From NCBI RefSeq assembly GCF_009914755.1, contig NC_060940.1: a DNA stretch of 64,000 bases, one strand, 5' to 3'. Position numbers and translations under genes: made by a program. The notes under the pieces were generated by a model that did not search any database, had not been told where the DNA came from, and saw nothing but the letters and a program-made list of their open reading frames with translations. Below, piece by piece: positions 5,576-64,000 of the stretch (positions are counted from its first letter, which is position 1; every line of letters begins with the position of its first letter). This stretch comes from the human T2T-CHM13v2.0 reference genome, Homo sapiens.

Positions 5576-5761
5576 TGTACATCCAAGATTCCTTGTTTCT
5601 GGGGAGGCACAGCCTTAACTGGGGTCTCTTACATGGGAAAAAATGCAGCATTCATTGTGGATTTGTTTTGAGTTGGAGATCAGCTTAACAAACACCTTCA
5701 TGTGCTTGGGGAGAAGCTCTTCTTTAAATATCTTTCTCTGAAACCCTTTGAGATAGGGGTT

Positions 5762-6132
5762 TGTCTTAGTCCATTCAGACTGCTATAACAAGCCACCATA
5801 CCATAGACTGAGTGGCTTATAAACAACAGAAATTTATTTCTCACAGTTCTGGAGGCTGGAAGTTTGAGATCCAGGTACCATTACGGTTGGGTTCTGGTGA
5901 AGACCCTCTTGCAGGTTGTGAATGGCCGACATCTTGTTGTATCCTTACATGGCAGAAAAAGGGTGAGAGAGCTCTCTGGGGAATCTTTTATAAGGGCACT
6001 AATCCCATTCATGAAGCTCCAATCTCATGACCTAATTACCTCCCAAAGTCCTCACCTCCTAGTACTGTCACTCCGGGGGTTAGGATTTCAACAAATAAAT
6101 GTTGGACGAACACACACATTCAGTCTGTAACA
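5762..6132 (-). mobile_element. MLT1A-type MaLR solo LTR
   Basis: TGTCTTAGTCCATTCAGACTGCTATAACA...ACACATTCAGTCTGTAACA with TG...CA ends. Confidence 0.9.
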
Positions 6133-7449
6133 GGATTCTTCAAATTTCCATGGGATAGAAGGATCCACAGAACCACAGTTTGGTCATCAGTTGGAGTGTT
6201 GGAAGGACATGCAAAAATATTTGGGCCAAAGGATTCTCTGACTTTGGAGGGGTTGGGAAGTAAGATGGAAGGAGTTGCCGTCCCTTCCCTTAAGTCCTCA
6301 GATAAATGGGCAGTTCCATGAGAGGGGGTGGACATAGAGAGGTGATAGAGAAAGAGGAAGGTGGGTGCAGATGTCACATGAGTACTGACATCAGCTGGGG
6401 GGCATTCCAGGCCTCTCCAATGGGTAGAGATGTTGCAGGTTCCTATGAATACTCCTTCCTGATAGACAAGGAGTCTTTTATTTGAGAGTCATAAACTCTG
6501 GCTTCACCTCTTTCCCTTCTAGAAATGACTGCAAGCCTTGGGGAGAAGGGCCTGGAGGACTAGGCTGCTATGATTAACAGGTCAAGATCTTTTCCATGGA
6601 TCATTCTTTGAGTAGCAAGGTCTATAAAGAATATGACACATAGACATCCTGTTGATGGAAGGGAGAGAAAGAGAGATGAGATCCAGTCTGTCCTCTTGGC
6701 TCTTTGCTTCCTATTCAGGCTTCTGTGGTGTCTAGTCCTACTGCATGGGGTCTCTGTTGAGCAGCAGAAGTTGTGGTTAGACTCCAAATCTGGGAGGCTT
6801 CACCCGTCAAGGTCACACAATCCAGGCAGAGCAACACAGGAGCCATGGGTTGGGTGATGGCCTAATTCTTCGAGGCCGGTCAGTGCATTTCTGAGTGATG
6901 GCTCCTTATGAGTAGCAAATTGTTCTCCAAATTTGGGTTTCTGCTCAACTGCTTCAGGCAAGCCTAACCTTTCAAACACAAGCAGTGTCTGTCTGGGTGT
7001 GCAGAGGCACTTAGGTTATGGAGAGGAGGTTACTCTGCTTAAGGGAATTGCATTTAAAGTGCAGGTTCTGATTGGTCTCTGCAAATAACATTGCTGCCAA
7101 AATGGATGTGTCTGGAGGATGTGGCTGAAAATTCAATCTTGTGGTGATTCGAGGGAGGTGCATGCCATCTGATGTCCTGGGGTGATGTCATCTAAAGTCA
7201 CCTGGGCTATAAACTCGGGCTTGCTGGAAAATGGCTGGAGGGACTTGAACTGCTGTCTGTTGTCAGGTGGTGGTCCTCCTATTGCTACCTGTCTGGGGGC
7301 TCTTCTCTCCTTCCTCAGTGTCTAGTACATAGTGTGGCAGAGTGGAATTCAAAATTTGTCTGTGCTTTTTGATGTGCTATTTCCCCACATCCCCTGCCCG
7401 ATTTGAGCAATATTCTAGGCTTTGACAGCATTCTTCCCTGTGTTCAGAA

Positions 7450-20156: not shown

Positions 20157-20710
20157 TGTATTAGTTATCGACGCCTGCATAACAAAGTATCCACAAACTT
20201 TGCAGCTTAAAAAAACAAACATGTATTATTTGGCAGTTTCTGTGGGTTGGGAAACTGGAATTCTTTAGCTGGTGATTCTGGCTTAAGGTCTCTTGAGACC
20301 TTAAGACTCCAAAGCTTTCTAGTTGTGTGACTTTGGTGCCTGGGGCTGCAGTCCACTGAAGGCTTGAGTGGGGAAGATCTGCTTCCATGCTCACTTACGT
20401 GCTTGTTGGTGGGCTCAGTTCGGCACTGGCTGGTGATTGGAGGCCCCAGTTCTTTACCATGTGGGCCTCCCCGTAGGGTGCCCAGTTGTCCTAAGGCTGG
20501 GCGCTGGACACCCCCAGAGTGAGTGATCCAAGAGAGGGAGCAAGCCCAAGACCAAAGGCACAAGTGTTTTTTAGAACCTAATCTCGGTGTAACTTGCCAT
20601 CACTTCTGCCACATTCTATTGGTTACCCGGACCAACCCTAGCACAATATGAGAGAGGACTATAGAAGGGTGTGAGTATTAGAAGGCGGAGCTCACTGGGG
20701 GCCACCCGAA
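20157..20710 (-). mobile_element. MLT1F-like solo LTR
   Basis: TGTATTAGTTATC...GGGCTGCAGTC...CATGTGGGCCTC...CCATCACTTCTGCCACATTCTATTGG. Confidence 0.85.
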
Positions 20711-35628: not shown

Positions 35629-35987
35629 CGTATTAGTCTGTTTTCATGCTGCTGATAAAGACATACCCGAGACTGGGTAATTTATAAAGAAAAAAGGTTT
35701 AATGGACTCACAGTTCCACCTGGCTGGGGAGGCCTCAAAATCATGATGGAAGGTGAAAGGCATGTCTTACATGGCAGCAGACAAGAGAATGAGAGCCAAG
35801 TGAAAGGGGAAACCCCTTATAAAACCAACAGATCTTGTGAGACTTATTCACTACCACAAGAACAGTATGGGGGGAAACCCCTCCATGATTCAATTAGGTC
35901 CTACCAGGTCCCTCCCACAACATGTGGGGATTATGGGAGCCACAATTCAAGATGAAATTTGGGTGGGGACACAGCCAAACCATATTA
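35629..35987 (-). mobile_element. THE1(B-like) MaLR solo LTR with 5-bp TSD
   Basis: GTATTAGTCTGTTTTCATGCTGCTGATAAAGACATACCCGAGACTGGG...GGGACACAGCCAAACCATATTA; TACTA on both sides. Confidence 0.92.
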
Positions 35988-36464
35988 TACTACCTTCTAC
36001 CTGTATGATCCAGCAGGGGACCTAATGTAGTTTACTCACCTGTGATAGGAAGGTAATTATCCTATCCCAGGTAGTTGTCAGTGAGAATTGGTGCAATAAT
36101 ACATAAAAAATTCATGGCACATGATGTGGAGGTTAACAAATGTTTCACGTCATTCCATTTACTTTTCCTTCTAGCTCTCAAGATTGGTAGCCACTCATTT
36201 CTGCCAAAGAGATCTTTTGGCTGGTTTGCTTTATTTCCTGTTTTGGGGAAAGGTGCTTAAGTACCTACTTGAAAGTGCCTTCAAGTTCACATGGTCTTGT
36301 ACTCCTGGGTTCAAGCTATTCTCCCACCTCGGCCATCCAAAGTGCTGGGACTACAGGCATGAACCGCTGTGTCTGTCGTCATGCAGCCTGAAGAAACATG
36401 TGGCAGGCCTCTCACTCTGTTACCACAAAGCACTATTACTTCAGATCATTTATCTTAGATGCCA

Positions 36465-58649: not shown

Positions 58650-60247
58650 TATCTTTTATTGTGATAAAACATATATATAACATAAAAGTTACCATTTTAA
58701 CCACTTTTAAGTATGTGTCATTTTCATTGGCACTAGGCACATTTATAATTTGTGCACCTATCACCACTACTTATCCAGAACTTTTGATCATTCCAAACAG
58801 AAGCTCTGTAGTTATAAAACAAAAATTCCCCATTCTTTCCCCAGACCCTACCCCCCTGGTAACCCCCATACAACTTTATGTCTCTATGAATTTGGCAATT
58901 CTAGACACCTCATATAAATGAAATCATACAGTATTTGTCTTTTAAAGGCTGGCTTATTTCAGTTAGCATAATGTTCTCAAAGTTCATTGGTGTTGTAGCA
59001 TGTGGCAGAATTTCATTCCTTTTTAGGGCTGAATAATATTCCATTATATGTATATACCATATTTTATGTATTTGTTCATTTAATAATAGACACTTGTGCT
59101 GTTTTCACCTTTTGGCTACTGTGAATGCTGCTGCTATGAACAATGGTGCGCAAATATATGTTTGAGTCCCTGCTTTCAATTCTCTTGGGTATATACCCAG
59201 AAATGGAATTGTTGAATCATGTGGTAATTCTATGTTTAATTTTTTGAGGAACTGCCATACTGCGTTCTATAGTGGCTGCACCTTTTACATCCTCACTAGC
59301 AATGCACAAGGGTTCCAATTTCTCCACATCTTTGCCAACACTTGTTATTTTCAGGTTTCAATTTTTTAAAATAACAGCCATCCTAATGGATGTGAAGTGG
59401 TATCTCATTGTGGGTTTGATTTGCATTTTGCCTAATAGCTAATGATGTTGAACATCTTTTCATGTGCTTCTTGGGCATTTCTATATATTTGGAGAACTAT
59501 CTATTCAAGTATTTTGCCTGTTTTTGAATTGGGCTACTTTTGTTGTTGTTGTTGAGTTGCAGGAGGTCTTTACACATTCCAGATATTAATCCCTTACCAG
59601 ATATATGTTTTACTAATATTATCTCCCATCCCATGGGTTCTCTTTTCACTCTCTTGATAATGTCCTTTGATGCACAAAAGTTTTTACTTTTAATGAATTC
59701 CAATTTATCATTTTTTTTTCTTTTGTTGCCTGCACTATTGGCATCATATCCAAGAAACTATTACCCAATCTAATGTCATAAAGATTTTCCCCTATGTTTT
59801 CTTCTAGGAGTTTTATAGTTTTAGCTCTTCCATTTAGGTCTTTGATTCATTATGAGGTTTTATATCCTTTTGGTATATGATCTGGTATAAGGGTCCACCT
59901 TCATTCTTTTACATGTAGATATCCAGTTTTCCCAGCACCATTTGTTGAAGGCATCATCATTTTTCCATTGAATAATCTAAGCAATCTTTTTAAAAGTTAA
60001 CTGACCATATATATGATGATTTATTTCTGGACTCTTCTATCCATTGGTCTGTATGTCAGTTCTCATTCTAGTACCAAACTGTTTTGATTACTGTAGCTTT
60101 GTAGTAAGTTTTGAAATCAGGAACTGAGCATCCTCCAAATTTTGTTCCTTTTTCTTTTTCAAAATTGTTTTCGTTATTCAGAGTCCTTTGAGAGTCCATA
60201 AGAGTTTAAAGATGGGTTTTTCTATGTCTTCAAAAAAGCACTATTAG
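58650..60247 (-). mobile_element. Old L1 (L1MB-like) 3' UTR and ORF2 end, abutting the SALL4 retrocopy
   Basis: Antisense L1 3' sequence; minus ORF 59497-59703 (FIKSKNFCASKDIIKRVKREP) is ORF2 C-terminal-like. Confidence 0.88.
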
Positions 60248-60425
60248 GGACAGGGCAAATAACTGTGGCTCTCTGGGAACACTGAGGCTCACACCACATC
60301 GAGGCACAAGCTGGTAAAACCCCAGCACATCAACTTGAACGAGGACCAGGGTGAGCAGCAGCCACAGCAGCTGACCCTAGCATTTGCAGATGCGGGCCCA
60401 GTGGTGCTGGTGGCCTGGGAGCTGG

Positions 60426-60516
60426 GGCTGCTGTAACAAACAACCACAAACTGGATGGCTTAAAACAACAGAAATTTATTCTCTCACCGTTCTGAGGCCA
60501 GACGTCCAAACTTTAG
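60426..60516 (-). mobile_element. 91-bp MLT1 (MaLR) LTR fragment at the SALL4 exon 1/2 junction of the retrocopy
   Basis: GGCTGCTGTAACAAACAACCACAAACTGGATGGCTTAAAACAACAGAAATTTATTCTCTCACCGTTCTGAGGCCAGACGTCCAAA is the antisense MLT1 LTR end. It aligns with the MLT1A copy at 5779-5874 in this window. Confidence 0.9.
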
Positions 60517-63500
60517 GTGCTCCAGTGAACCACCCAGGGAATCACGATGATAAAGCGGCTTCATTGGGAGGAAACACACAAATGTGAGAAATGTTGTGTG
60601 GAGTTCTTTAGCATTTGTGAGTTCTTAGAACATAAGAAAAATTGCACTAAAAATCCACCTGTTGTGTTGTCATCATGAATGACAGCGAGGGGTCAGTGTC
60701 TTCAGGAGACTTCTCCGGAGCTGTGCTGAGCCACCAGCCACTTAGTTCAAGCAGTAAGGATGGTCACAGGGAGAATGGTGGCAGCCTAGGGAGCATGAAG
60801 GAGGAGCTGGGTGTGGAGTGTGTGGTGCACTCAAAAACAGAGATGGCCTTGCCACCCACACCCCAGAAGATAAGCTATTTACTTAAAGGCAAAGTGGCCA
60901 ACACTATGTGAGCCTGCAGGCAATACAGGGCACCAAAGTGGCAATGAATCAGTGGAGCTTAGATGCATTGCCAGCCTCCGTGCCCCGTAACAACAGCATC
61001 CCATGGGTCCTTGAGTAGATCCTGTGTCTGCAGCAGCAACAGCTACGGTAGATTCAGCTCACCAAGCAGGTCCTCATCCAGGTGGACATGTGGGCCTTAC
61101 AGCCTTACACGCCTTCTACTCAGGTGGGGAAGGGGCCAACACCCTGAAGGCCTTGTGCAGCCACCTGCTCCAGCAGGCTTCTGCGGCTGTGGCTTTGCTC
61201 AGCCCAAAGGCTGGAAGCCAAGGTCTGTCTCTGGACACCTTGAAACAAGCCATACTACCTCACACCAACATCCTTTTCACCACCAGTTCTCCATCCCCAG
61301 GGCTGACGCCCTTTGCTGTGAAGCTGGATGGGACCAGGGTGAGCCAAATGTAATGTCCCACCTCTTGAGTGCTTTGCTTTCTCAGGCCCCGGGATTGGTG
61401 TGCTTCCAAAGTCCTTTCTCCACTGTAGCACTAGACCCATCCAAGAAAGGGAAGGGGAAGCCACTGAACATCTCCTCAGTGGATGTTAAACCCAAAGACG
61501 AGGTGATCCTCTACAAGGACAAGTGTAAGTACTGTAACAAGGTTGTTTGAGACTGATAGCTCCTTGCAGATCCACCTCCACTTCCACATGGGAAGAGAGA
61601 CCCTTTGTGTGCTTTGTCTGTGATAACTGCTTCACCACCAAGGGCAACCTCAAGGTGCACATTCACCAACATCCCCAGGTGAAGGCAAACCCTCACTCTT
61701 TGCTGAGCTCTAGGACAAAATGGTGGTAGGCAGTGACATCCCCTATGCACTCTTTGTACATCAATAGATGAACTGAGTCTCTCTTTAGACAGAAAACCTG
61801 TTCTTGTAATCCCCTCTGTTGGACTACCTCAAAAGCTGTTTGGGGCCTAACCCCAAGGACCTCACAGGTGGCCCATTGCCCAGTGACCTGTAGCCCACAC
61901 TTCCTGGCATGGGGCCAAACCATAATTCCCCAAGGGTTGGTGGCTTCCAAGAAAGTGGGACCCCTGAACCAGGGTCAGAGACCCTGAAATTGCAGCAGCT
62001 GGTGGAGTACATCGACATGACCACCACTGACCCCAACAAATGCCTCATTTGCCACCGAGTATTAAGCTGCTAAAGCACCCTTTAAATGCATTGCTGCATC
62101 CATACTCCAGAGACACCATTCCAATGTAAGATCTGTGGCTGAGCTTTTTCTACCAAAGGCAACCCTTAAGACACACTGGGGTTCACCAACCCAACACGTC
62201 CATAAAGGTGCAGCATCTGTGCCTTTTCTATCAGAAGAAGTTCACCGGTGCTGTGATGTTGTGGCAGCATATTCAGATGGACCTGGCCAGTCAGATTCCC
62301 AACCTTCCCCTGCCAGAGAATTCCTGTGACTTTATGGGTCCTGAGCCAATGACGGTGGATGAGAATGGCAGCACCAGTGCCATGTGCCATGATGATGTTT
62401 TTGAAAGCACCAGTGTAGATGAAGTCAGCTCCCAGAGGCCTCCAGTAGCTCCTCAAAGGTCCCTGTGCCTCTTCCCAGCATGTAGTAGGCATCATCCACA
62501 CTAGAGTTCACCAAGATGGGTTCCTTAGATGCCCTGGGAAAAGTGGGTCCTGCCCCTTTTGGCCTGCAGCACTAGAGCAGCAGAGAAAACAGTTCCATGA
62601 AGAGCAATAGCTTTGACCAACGACTGGTCCTCACTAATGGGAGACCAGGAGTATCAGAGCTGAAGTCCAGACATCATGGAAGCCACATCCTTCCAGGTAC
62701 TCTGCTCGGTCAATGGCCAAGCAGAAAGGATCAGTCAAAGTCTCCTGATGCTGGGGACAAAGCAGAAAGCTCTGAAAACAGCTCTACTAAGATAGAAGGT
62801 TGGAGCCATCTCCCTTCAACGTTTATCTGAGCTCAGTCAATCTATGTCACAGTTGAAGTCGCTGGCACATTTGTTGAACCCTCCACATTGTCCCTGGGGA
62901 TGACCCCTTTGTCAGTGGCCTAGCCATGCCAACAGGCCAAGCAACACAGCTGCACGTGGTGTGGGAAGAACTTCTTACCCATTAGCTTTCTTCAGATTCA
63001 TGAGCACACTCACACTGGAGAGAAGCCTTTTGCATGCAACATTTGTGGGTAAGCTTTTACCACCAAAGGCAACTGGAAGGTCCACTATGTGACTCAGCAC
63101 GCCATGGTAGGAAGCTGGCTATCGAAAACACCATGGCTCTCTTAGGTGCAGATGGAAAGAGTCTCAAATATTTCCCAGGGAAATTCTGGCCACTTTAGTG
63201 AACATGGGCCCTGTTTTGTGGAACCAGGACACCAGCATGCTCAATGGTGGTCTGGCCAAGAAGACCAATGAGATCTCTGTGATCCAGAGTGGCGGTGTTC
63301 CTACCCTCCTGGTTTCCTTGGGAGTCAGCTTCAATATAAATAACGCCACTGTCTCCAACGCGGATGGCTTCCAATTAGGTATCAGTGCAGATATGGAAAA
63401 AGCAGGTGCTACTGGGAGCATTCCCAAATACCAGTTTTCTCACTTCCTGGAAGAAGATGAGCTTGTGGTCAGCCAAACTCAAGGAGAACTTGCATGGAAG

Positions 63501-63561
63501 GAGAAATGCAAACAGAGTGAAATCTCTAGAATCTGCTCTTTTTAATAAGAACTCATATCCT

Positions 63562-63942
<381 letters not shown>

Positions 63943-64000
63943 TCAGGCAAGTCCTACAATCATGATTGTTGCTATGCTGCTTTGCAAAAAATGAGAAAAA

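What the first reader, a model, noticed from the sequence alone, without database searches (positions are those of the whole stretch)
60420..60530. Fossil of a SALL4 isoform with an LTR-derived poison exon, frozen in the retrocopy
Seen: the retrocopy reads ...GAG CTG G (ends 60425), then 91 bp of antisense MLT1 LTR (60426-60516), then GTGCTCCAGTGAACCAC (from 60517). There is no TSD or poly(A) around the insert. In frame it gives GGG CTG CTG TAA, an immediate stop, and 91 nt also shifts the frame. Its 3' end aligns base for base with the AG|GT in the MLT1A copy at 5874/5875. Recalled knowledge: this break is the SALL4 exon 1/2 boundary (c.130). Antisense MLT1B/C begins ...TTCCTAG|GGCTGC, an acceptor exactly where the insert starts. 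MLT1 elements were extinct long before primate retrocopies formed. Inference: the reverse-transcribed mRNA contained an exonised MLT1 from SALL4 intron 1. That would be an NMD-coupled poison exon (or an upstream alternative acceptor, since the insert ends in CTTTAG) expressed in ancestral germline or early embryo, and possibly an unannotated dosage control on a pluripotency factor.
Basis: partly seen in the sequence, partly recalled or inferred. Interest (0 to 1): 0.9.

Follow-up and report, generated by a model that had tools for sequence, protein, structure and literature searches.

The report
Extra LTR exon in SALL4 retrocopy
An old processed copy of the SALL4 gene carries a 91-base piece of an ancient LTR exactly where exons 1 and 2 meet, most likely a fossil of a long-gone mis-spliced transcript, since today's human SALL4 intron 1 no longer holds that LTR.

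Summary
Window 60248-60425 is SALL4 exon 1. 60426-60516 is a 91-bp piece of a high-copy MLT1-type LTR. 60517 onward is exon 2, with no parental base lost or gained. The copy is a full processed retrocopy: exons 1-4, 3'UTR, and a target-site duplication.

In 27 natural copies of the LTR, AG lies just before the insert's first base in 17 and GT just after its last base in 13. The piece therefore has the outline of a spliced cassette exon. It would place TAA three codons after exon 1 and shift the frame.

The 9,927-bp SALL4 intron 1, and 30.3 kb around the gene, hold nothing like the insert in gene orientation. Five other SALL4 retrocopies cross the junction without it.

Best reading (about 0.7): a fossil of an ancestral minor or aberrant transcript whose source LTR has since been lost. 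A working poison exon in human SALL4 today is not supported. Other species could not be checked. This is a new example of a known kind, of modest interest.

The parts
60232..60250 (+). 5' copy of the retrocopy's target-site duplication (about 17-19 nt, A-rich start). The 3' copy lies outside the window at about window-coordinate 65952-65968.
   Evidence: The two copies differ by 3 mismatches/1 indel. L1-like sequence continues on both sides (the L1 label is recalled).
60248..60425 (+). SALL4 exon 1-derived part of the retrocopy: 48 nt of 5'UTR and the 130 coding nt. The start codon has decayed.
   Evidence: 81 % identity to C20:53573913-53573736. The exon end GAGCTGG matches the parent's exon end before GTGAGT. 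130 coding nt counted.
60426..60516 (+). 91-bp piece of an MLT1-type (MaLR) LTR, starting about 17 nt inside one LTR end and lying antisense to the LTR's AATAAA. The presumed extra (cassette) exon.
   Evidence: Absent from the parent mRNA junction and from 5 other retrocopies.
60434..60436 (+). TAA in the SALL4 reading frame, three codons after exon 1.
   Evidence: Phase taken from the 130 coding nt of exon 1 and the sequence. GGGCTGCTGTAACA is also what the closest natural copies read (L002, L003, L006, L007, L008).
60517..62798 (+). SALL4 exon 2-derived part. The whole exon is present, i.e. the long SALL4A-type form, with a 23-nt deletion just after 60546.
   Evidence: 81.8 % identity to C20:53563810-53561476. 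Junction with exon 3 read. Deletion seen.
62799..63079 (+). SALL4 exon 3-derived part.
   Evidence: 83.5 % identity to C20:53560599-53560315. Junctions read.
63080..63561 (+). SALL4 exon 4-derived part (end of the CDS and start of the 3'UTR), up to a later Alu insertion.
   Evidence: 84.2 % identity to C20:53556113-53555645.
63562..63871 (+). Alu inserted into the retrocopy after it formed. It is not part of the SALL4 transcript.
   Evidence: The parent sequence is continuous across this point.
63872..64000 (+). SALL4 3'UTR-derived part. It continues beyond the window to about window-coordinate 65951, where it ends about 25 nt after AATAAA in a run of 6 A.

Best explanation
SALL4P3 is an L1-made processed retrocopy of a full-length SALL4A-type mRNA that carried one extra 91-nt exon between exons 1 and 2.

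That exon was a piece of an old MLT1-type LTR lying antisense in SALL4 intron 1 of an ancestor. I place this roughly 50-90 million years ago, by my own rate estimate. The spliceosome used the pyrimidine-rich ...TTTCCTAG| near the LTR end as an acceptor, and ...AAG|GTG 91 nt further on as a donor.

The transcript would have stopped at a TAA three codons after exon 1. It was therefore a non-productive, probably minor or aberrant, isoform that happened to be reverse-transcribed in the germ line. The source LTR has since been lost from the human intron.

Shown: the anatomy of the retrocopy, the exact junction, the family-wide AG/GT at the two ends, and the absence of a source in human.

Inferred: that splicing made the insert, that the source lay in intron 1, and that it was later deleted.
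For: (1) Exact junction. The parent reads GAGCTGG|GTGAGT...TTACAG|GTGCTCC. The retrocopy reads GAGCTGG + 91 nt + GTGCTCC, with no base lost or gained.

(2) The host is a true processed copy. Exons 1-4 and the 3'UTR are colinear with the parent. The exon 2/3 and 3/4 joins are canonical. It ends about 25 nt after AATAAA and has a 17-19 nt target-site duplication inside an L1. The LTR piece is therefore not from the target site. nhmmer finds no LTR of this kind flanking the retrocopy.

(3) Splice-like ends. In 27 natural copies, AG directly precedes the position of the insert's first base in 17, mostly in the context TTTCCTAG|GGCTGCTG. GT directly follows its last base in 13, of which 11 read AG|GT.

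(4) No stand-out donor elsewhere. The insert's best genome hits, 82-92 % over 39 scored of 984 candidates, are no better than those of a natural copy used as a control (85-90 %). This argues against a recent copy-in.

(5) MLT1 is given as older than 100 My (PMC1794541, Table 1, passages seen), whereas the retrocopy differs from the parent by non-CpG K2P 0.11-0.14. The LTR could not have transposed in afterwards.
Against: (1) Human SALL4 intron 1 (9,927 bp) and the 30.3-kb locus hold no homologue of the insert in gene orientation. If the source had survived I would expect about 80 % identity (inference), which would be easy to see. The explanation therefore needs a later deletion, which I could not test.

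(2) Only 1 of 6 junction-spanning SALL4 retrocopies has the insert.

(3) Some family members share short strings with the flanks. CTGG lies before the insert position in 4 of 27 copies, and GTGCT after it in 2 of 27. A microhomology-guided, non-splicing insertion is therefore not excluded.

(4) No RNA evidence and no other species were available. The actual source's splice sites are unknown.
Confidence: 0.7

Rival explanations
1. Later DNA-level event. After the retrocopy had integrated, a break at what happens to be the exon 1/2 join was repaired with a stretch copied from an MLT1 elsewhere (templated or microhomology-mediated insertion).
For: - There is no source in human intron 1.
- Short homologies exist between the flanks and some family members: CTGG in 4 of 27 copies and GTGCT in 2 of 27.
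- An insertion at a single break leaves the flanks intact.
Against: - The break would have to fall by chance within a few bases of one particular point in a retrocopy of about 5.7 kb, on the order of 1 in 1,000 by inference.
- No genomic copy stands out as a donor. The best hits, 82-92 %, equal the family background.
- The ends fall on the family's AG and GT positions.
Confidence: 0.07
2. Reverse-transcriptase template switching while the retrocopy was made. L1 RT left the SALL4 mRNA at the start of exon 2, copied 91 nt of another LTR-bearing RNA, and returned to the end of exon 1.
For: The same microhomologies as above. Chimeric retrocopies are a known class (recalled).
Against: - It needs two jumps that leave and re-enter the SALL4 RNA at adjacent bases, exactly at an exon boundary.
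- By recall, known chimeras join at 5' ends rather than internally.
Confidence: 0.04
3. The exon is, or was, a conserved and regulated NMD-coupled poison exon that sets SALL4 dosage in germ line or embryo, and is still unannotated in human.
For: - An in-frame TAA lies 80 nt before the next junction, and the frame shifts.
- SALL4 is dosage-sensitive (recalled).
- TE-initiated SALL4 transcripts from intron 1 that splice into exon 2 are in print (AluJb at hg38 chr20:51793216-51793470, supplement of PMC10696462; MLT1J-SALL4 in passages of PMC8450112 and PMC11359688).
Against: - The sequence is absent from human intron 1, so it cannot act in human now.
- Five of 6 junction-spanning retrocopies lack it.
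- The stop lies 141 nt from the start codon, a zone where NMD is recalled to be weak.
- Searches for 'SALL4' with 'poison exon' (2 papers) and with 'cryptic exon' (7 papers) showed, by their listings, none about a SALL4 exon.
Confidence: 0.04
4. Retention of the last 91 nt of intron 1 through an upstream alternative acceptor.
For: The insert ends in ...CTTTAG, directly before exon 2.
Against: The last 91 nt of human intron 1 are unrelated to the insert and are not LTR-like. An Alu begins 66 bp upstream of exon 2.
Confidence: 0.01

Closest known systems
Processed pseudogenes as records of splice variants (Shemesh, Novik, Edelheit and Sorek 2006, PNAS 103:1364). I saw the reference listing only, the paper itself is not held, and its content is recalled.
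   Same: A retrocopy freezes the exon structure of the mRNA it was made from, including variants that are not annotated.
   Different: Here the extra exon has no counterpart left in the parent gene of the same genome. The retrocopy is the only record, and the variant cannot be confirmed against the intron.
Exonisation of intronic transposable elements, including old MaLR/MLT1 LTRs spliced at cryptic sites (PMC1794541, passages seen).
   Same: An antisense LTR piece bounded by AG and GT and used as an internal exon. That paper reports that old elements such as MLT1 splice at cryptic sites.
   Different: No transcript and no source element can be shown. The evidence is indirect, coming from the junction position and from family-wide dinucleotides.
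TE-initiated SALL4 transcripts in cancers and hESC: MLT1J-SALL4 and AluJb-SALL4 (passages of PMC8450112, PMC10696462 and its supplement, PMC11359688 and PMC10363060). The primary paper, Jang et al. 2019, is not held.
   Same: A repeat in SALL4 intron 1 contributes an exon that splices into exon 2.
   Different: Those repeats are alternative first exons or promoters that replace exon 1. Here exon 1 is kept and the LTR piece is internal. The AluJb is a different family. I could not locate the MLT1J in intron 1, and nothing there matches the insert.
NMD-coupled poison exons of splicing regulators (for example RBM39, PMC10477243, listing and start of abstract seen).
   Same: A cassette exon that brings in a premature stop.
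   Different: Poison exons are defined by conservation and regulated inclusion. Here the exon is missing from the human gene and neither property can be shown.

Membership tests
L1-mediated processed retrocopy | All introns removed; colinear with the mature mRNA | tested here: met
   Exons 1-4 and the 3'UTR align in order to the parent. The exon 2/3 and 3/4 joins are canonical.
L1-mediated processed retrocopy | Ends at the mRNA's poly(A) site with an A-tail | tested here: inconclusive
   Homology ends about 25 nt after AATAAA, followed by only 6 A. These cannot be told apart from the A-rich start of the target-site duplication.
L1-mediated processed retrocopy | Target-site duplication flanking the insertion | tested here: met
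   Copies of about 17-19 nt at 60232-60250 and about 65952-65968, differing by 3 mismatches/1 indel. L1-like flanks continue on both sides.
TE-derived cassette exon (exonisation) | Extra sequence lies exactly between two constitutive exons | tested here: met
TE-derived cassette exon (exonisation) | AG before and GT after the exon in the source element | tested here: inconclusive
   The source is not available. In 27 natural family copies, AG is present before the position in 17 and GT after it in 13. These copies were chosen as the best hits to a query that included 46 and 44 nt of exon flanks.
TE-derived cassette exon (exonisation) | Source element present in the intervening intron, in the same orientation | tested here: not met
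   Tested in human T2T intron 1 (9,927 bp, no N). The Smith-Waterman score of 13 equals the shuffles. nhmmer gives 0 hits at E <= 10. The only other match is 24 A-rich nt on the wrong strand. Other species were not testable.
TE-derived cassette exon (exonisation) | Transcripts containing the exon | not testable with these tools
   No RNA data were available.
NMD-coupled poison exon | In-frame premature stop more than about 50-55 nt upstream of a downstream exon junction (rule recalled) | tested here: met
   TAA at insert bases 9-11, 80 nt before the next junction. The phase comes from the 130 coding nt of exon 1.
NMD-coupled poison exon | Exon and its flanks conserved in the gene | tested here: not met
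   Absent from human SALL4 intron 1.
NMD-coupled poison exon | Regulated inclusion, and transcript stabilised when NMD is blocked | not testable with these tools
   No expression data were available.
MLT1 (MaLR) LTR | Match to the family's reference sequence | not testable with these tools
   No repeat library is held. Shown instead: 984-1187 genomic candidates, homology to the window's copy at 5780-5863 (E 2.5e-7), and a common element edge about 17 nt before the insert start. The family name is recalled.

The most novel reading that the evidence does not exclude
The retrocopy is the only surviving record, in human, of a real SALL4 exon made from an antisense MLT1 in intron 1. On this reading the LTR and its splice sites still exist in other mammals, and there the exon is included in germ line or early embryo. 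Because the stop lies only 141 nt from the start codon, such transcripts could escape NMD and re-initiate in exon 2. The product would be a SALL4 lacking its N-terminal repressor-recruiting end. The NMD rule and the N-terminal motif are recalled, and the re-initiation is speculation.
Probability: 0.08. Interest if true: 0.6.

Novelty: new member of a known kind. Interest (0 to 1): 0.3.

Why it matters
It is a clean example of a retrocopy preserving an exon that its parent gene no longer has. For a dosage-sensitive pluripotency gene, it shows that intron 1 once produced an LTR-containing, prematurely terminated transcript in the germ line.

It does not reveal a control mechanism acting in human today. 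Its value is mainly as a pointer. A look at SALL4 intron 1 in other mammals would show whether this was splicing noise at a since-deleted LTR or a lineage-restricted regulated exon.

It also shows that the RefSeq span of SALL4P3 leaves out exon 1 and most of the 3'UTR.

Tried and rejected
- BLAST, nhmmer and Smith-Waterman of the insert and of 8 natural LTR copies against intron 1 and 30.3 kb of the SALL4 locus found no source. The shuffles were scored on the sense strand only and used for both strands.
- The 24-nt match in intron 1 (insert 9-32, 87.5 %) is A-rich and on the strand antisense to SALL4, so I rejected it as a source.
- I tried to locate the MLT1J reported in print. Genome self-search of two stretches next to the presumed AluJb gave only Alu-like repeats or nothing. 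500-nt tiles of intron 1 run against the window gave Alu hits and one weak unrelated repeat. The MLT1J was not located. Which Alu in T2T corresponds to the published hg38 AluJb is my guess.
- The target-site origin of the LTR piece is rejected. The flanks are L1-like with a target-site duplication, and no LTR adjoins the retrocopy.
- Origin from the window's own LTR copies (5732-5901, 20160-20297, 35848-36030) is rejected, because the similarity is only at family level.
- Earlier findings were not open.
- Jang et al. 2019 and Shemesh et al. 2006 are not held. The supplement of PMC10363060 held no SALL4 row.
- My own translation of the retrocopy started one base off. I do not use it.
Full report
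**What is there**

The window reads ...GGGAGCTGG, then 91 bases beginning GGCTGCTGTAACAAAC and ending CCAAACTTTAG, then GTGCTCCAGTGAACCACCC. Searching the window's own genome placed the parent gene on contig C20, minus strand.
- Exon 1 matches C20:53573913-53573736 at 81 %.
- Exon 2 starts at C20:53563808.
- In gene orientation the parent reads ...GGGGAGCTGG|GTGAGTGG at the end of exon 1, and ...TTGTTACAG|GTGCTCCAGTG at the start of exon 2.

The 91 bases at 60426-60516 therefore lie exactly at the exon 1/2 join, with no parental base lost or repeated (alignments). Exon 1 carries 130 coding bases. The break is thus c.130/131, the frame runs G|GG CTG CTG TAA (TAA at 60434-60436), and 91 bases also shift the frame.

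**The host is a genuine, nearly full-length processed retrocopy**

BLAST of the region, extended beyond the window with a fetched stretch, maps these parts against the parent locus:
- exon 1: 60248-60425
- exon 2: 60517 to about 62798
- exon 3: to about 63079
- exon 4 and the 3'UTR: up to about window-coordinate 65942

Two Alus interrupt it (63562-63871 and about 65233-65531). One Alu in the parent's 3'UTR is missing from the copy.

The exon 2/3 and 3/4 joins are canonical. Homology ends about 25 nt after AATAAA, followed by six A. A duplication of 17-19 nt flanks the whole insertion (60232-60250 and about 65952-65968), inside what I recognise by recall as the 3' part of an L1.

RefSeq's SALL4P3 span (60517-63561) therefore leaves out exon 1 and most of the 3'UTR. 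Because the flanks are L1-like and contiguous, the LTR piece did not come from the target site.

**What the 91 bases are**

They belong to a high-copy interspersed repeat. There are 984-1187 first-look candidates, and the 39 scored non-self hits show 82-92 % identity. Natural copies share an element edge (TGTAT...) about 17 nt before the point where the insert begins. The insert also matches the window's own copy at 5780-5863.

The name MLT1 and the antisense orientation are recalled, since no repeat library is held. The orientation rests on TTTATT in the insert, which is AATAAA on the other strand.

**The ends of the insert look like splice sites**

I compared 27 natural copies: the 7 loci plus the next 20 of its top 40 hits, fetched.
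- The dinucleotide directly before the insert's first base is AG in 17 of 27, typically as TTTCCTAG|GGCTGCTG.
- The dinucleotide directly after its last base is GT in 13 of 27, of which 11 read AG|GT.
- Ten copies lack the AG and fourteen lack the GT. Several of the misses had local alignments that stopped short of the insert's end, so their ends were extrapolated without gaps.
- The last base of the insert falls on 5874 of the window's copy, where AG|GT is read.

Intron 1 is 9,927 bp with no N.
- BLAST with word size 7 gave only a 24-nt, A-rich match on the strand antisense to SALL4.
- nhmmer with 9 queries (8 natural copies of about 480 nt, and the insert) gave 0 hits at E <= 10 over 30,300 bp spanning the gene and 10 kb upstream.
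- As a control, the same queries gave 20 hits at E <= 1e-3 in the 64-kb window. These fall at four places, including the insert itself.
- Smith-Waterman of the insert against intron 1 in gene orientation scored 13. Shuffled inserts gave 12.2 +/- 1.1, and 22 of 100 reached 13.

Had the source survived, I would expect it to be about 80 % identical to the insert. This is an inference from the non-CpG K2P of 0.11-0.14 between retrocopy and parent. At that level it would not have been missed.

The last 91 bases of intron 1 are likewise unrelated, which removes the alternative-acceptor variant.

**Other SALL4 retrocopies**

One search found the parent plus six long retrocopies (C5, chrX, two on C14, two on C3) and some short pieces.
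- Five of the six cross the junction with exon 1 joined directly to exon 2.
- The chrX copy is truncated about 8 nt before the junction.
- The X/Y fragments do not reach it.

So 1 of 6 junction-spanning copies has the insert, and it is the youngest: 81 % identity to the parent against 70-76 % for the others.

**Weighing the explanations**

A spliced origin explains three things at once: the exact junction, the AG/GT positions, and the processed host. Its cost is a later loss of the source LTR from the human intron. That loss is untested. Six Alus lie within 3.9 kb upstream of exon 2, and these could have mediated a deletion, but that is speculation.

A DNA-level templated insertion, or reverse-transcriptase template jumps, would need the event to hit this one position in a copy of about 5.7 kb. 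They do gain some room from short homologies. CTGG precedes the insert position in 4 of 27 copies, and GTGCT follows it in 2 of 27. No genomic copy stands out as a donor. A natural copy used as a control finds non-self hits at 85-90 %, the same range as the insert's.

I put the spliced-exon origin at about 0.7.

**Function**

Nothing supports a regulated poison exon. The sequence is not in the human gene, and most retrocopies lack it. By a recalled rule, the stop at 141 nt from the start codon lies where NMD is weak.

MLT1 is listed as older than 100 My (PMC1794541, Table 1, passages seen). The retrocopy, by my rate-based guess of 50-90 My using recalled rates, came later. The LTR would therefore have been an old resident of the intron, spliced at cryptic sites, as that paper describes for old elements.

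**Print**

- 'SALL4P3' occurs in 0 held papers.
- 'SALL4' with 'poison exon' gives 2 papers and with 'cryptic exon' gives 7. By their listings, none concerns a SALL4 exon.
- Kwon et al. (PMC10938534, passages seen) state that SALL4 has eight pseudogenes and that these had not been studied before.
- Repeat-initiated SALL4 transcripts from intron 1 into exon 2 are known. AluJb at hg38 chr20:51793216-51793470 appears in the supplement of PMC10696462. MLT1J-SALL4 appears in passages of PMC8450112, PMC10696462 and PMC11359688. Both the repeat and SALL4 are reported as hESC-enriched in PMC10363060.
- These are first exons, not internal ones. I could not locate the MLT1J, and the primary paper is not held, so its supplement may bear on where that LTR lies and how it is oriented.
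- The idea that processed pseudogenes record splice variants is Shemesh et al. 2006. I saw the reference listing only, and the content is recalled.

**Verdict**

This is a new member of a known kind, of modest interest. It becomes more interesting only if other mammals still carry and splice the LTR.

Noticed in passing
window 60248-64000 and beyond (to about window-coordinate 65951): RefSeq's SALL4P3 span (60517-63561) under-calls the retrocopy. Exon-1-derived DNA lies upstream at 60248-60425, and about 2 kb of 3'UTR-derived DNA follows the Alu and runs past the window end.
   Followed up: yes
window 60000-60250; about 65969 onward (outside the window): The retrocopy sits inside the 3' part of an L1-like element, which continues on the far side after a target-site duplication of 17-19 nt. 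The L1 label is recalled.
   Followed up: partly
parent locus C20:53555194-53555489 (locus L028): The SALL4 3'UTR carries an Alu that the retrocopy lacks, so it entered the parent after the retrocopy was made. Conversely, two Alus entered the retrocopy (63562-63871 and about 65233-65531).
   Followed up: partly
window, just after 60546: A 23-nt deletion in the retrocopy relative to parent exon 2, shortly after the junction. The other retrocopies keep this stretch or have deletions of their own.
   Followed up: no
L012 (C23:128.19 Mb, chrX): This SALL4 retrocopy is 5'-truncated about 8 nt upstream of the exon 1/2 junction. Upstream of that point it is unrelated sequence.
   Followed up: partly
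parent intron 1, C20:53563874-53567680 (L024): Six Alu copies crowd the 3.9 kb of intron 1 nearest exon 2, and the closest starts 66 bp from the acceptor. Four or five of them lie on the same strand, a setting in which Alu-Alu deletions are possible.
   Followed up: no
window 5732-6180, 20160-20297, 35848-36030: Other MaLR-type LTR pieces in the window were found by the positive-control nhmmer run. The first is a nearly whole LTR in the same orientation as the insert.
   Followed up: no
parent intron 1, about 3.45 kb upstream of exon 2 (L024:3558-3581): A 24-nt A-rich match to insert bases 9-32 (87.5 %) on the strand antisense to SALL4. It scores above all 100 shuffles, but it is short, of low complexity, and in the wrong orientation to be the source.
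   Followed up: partly
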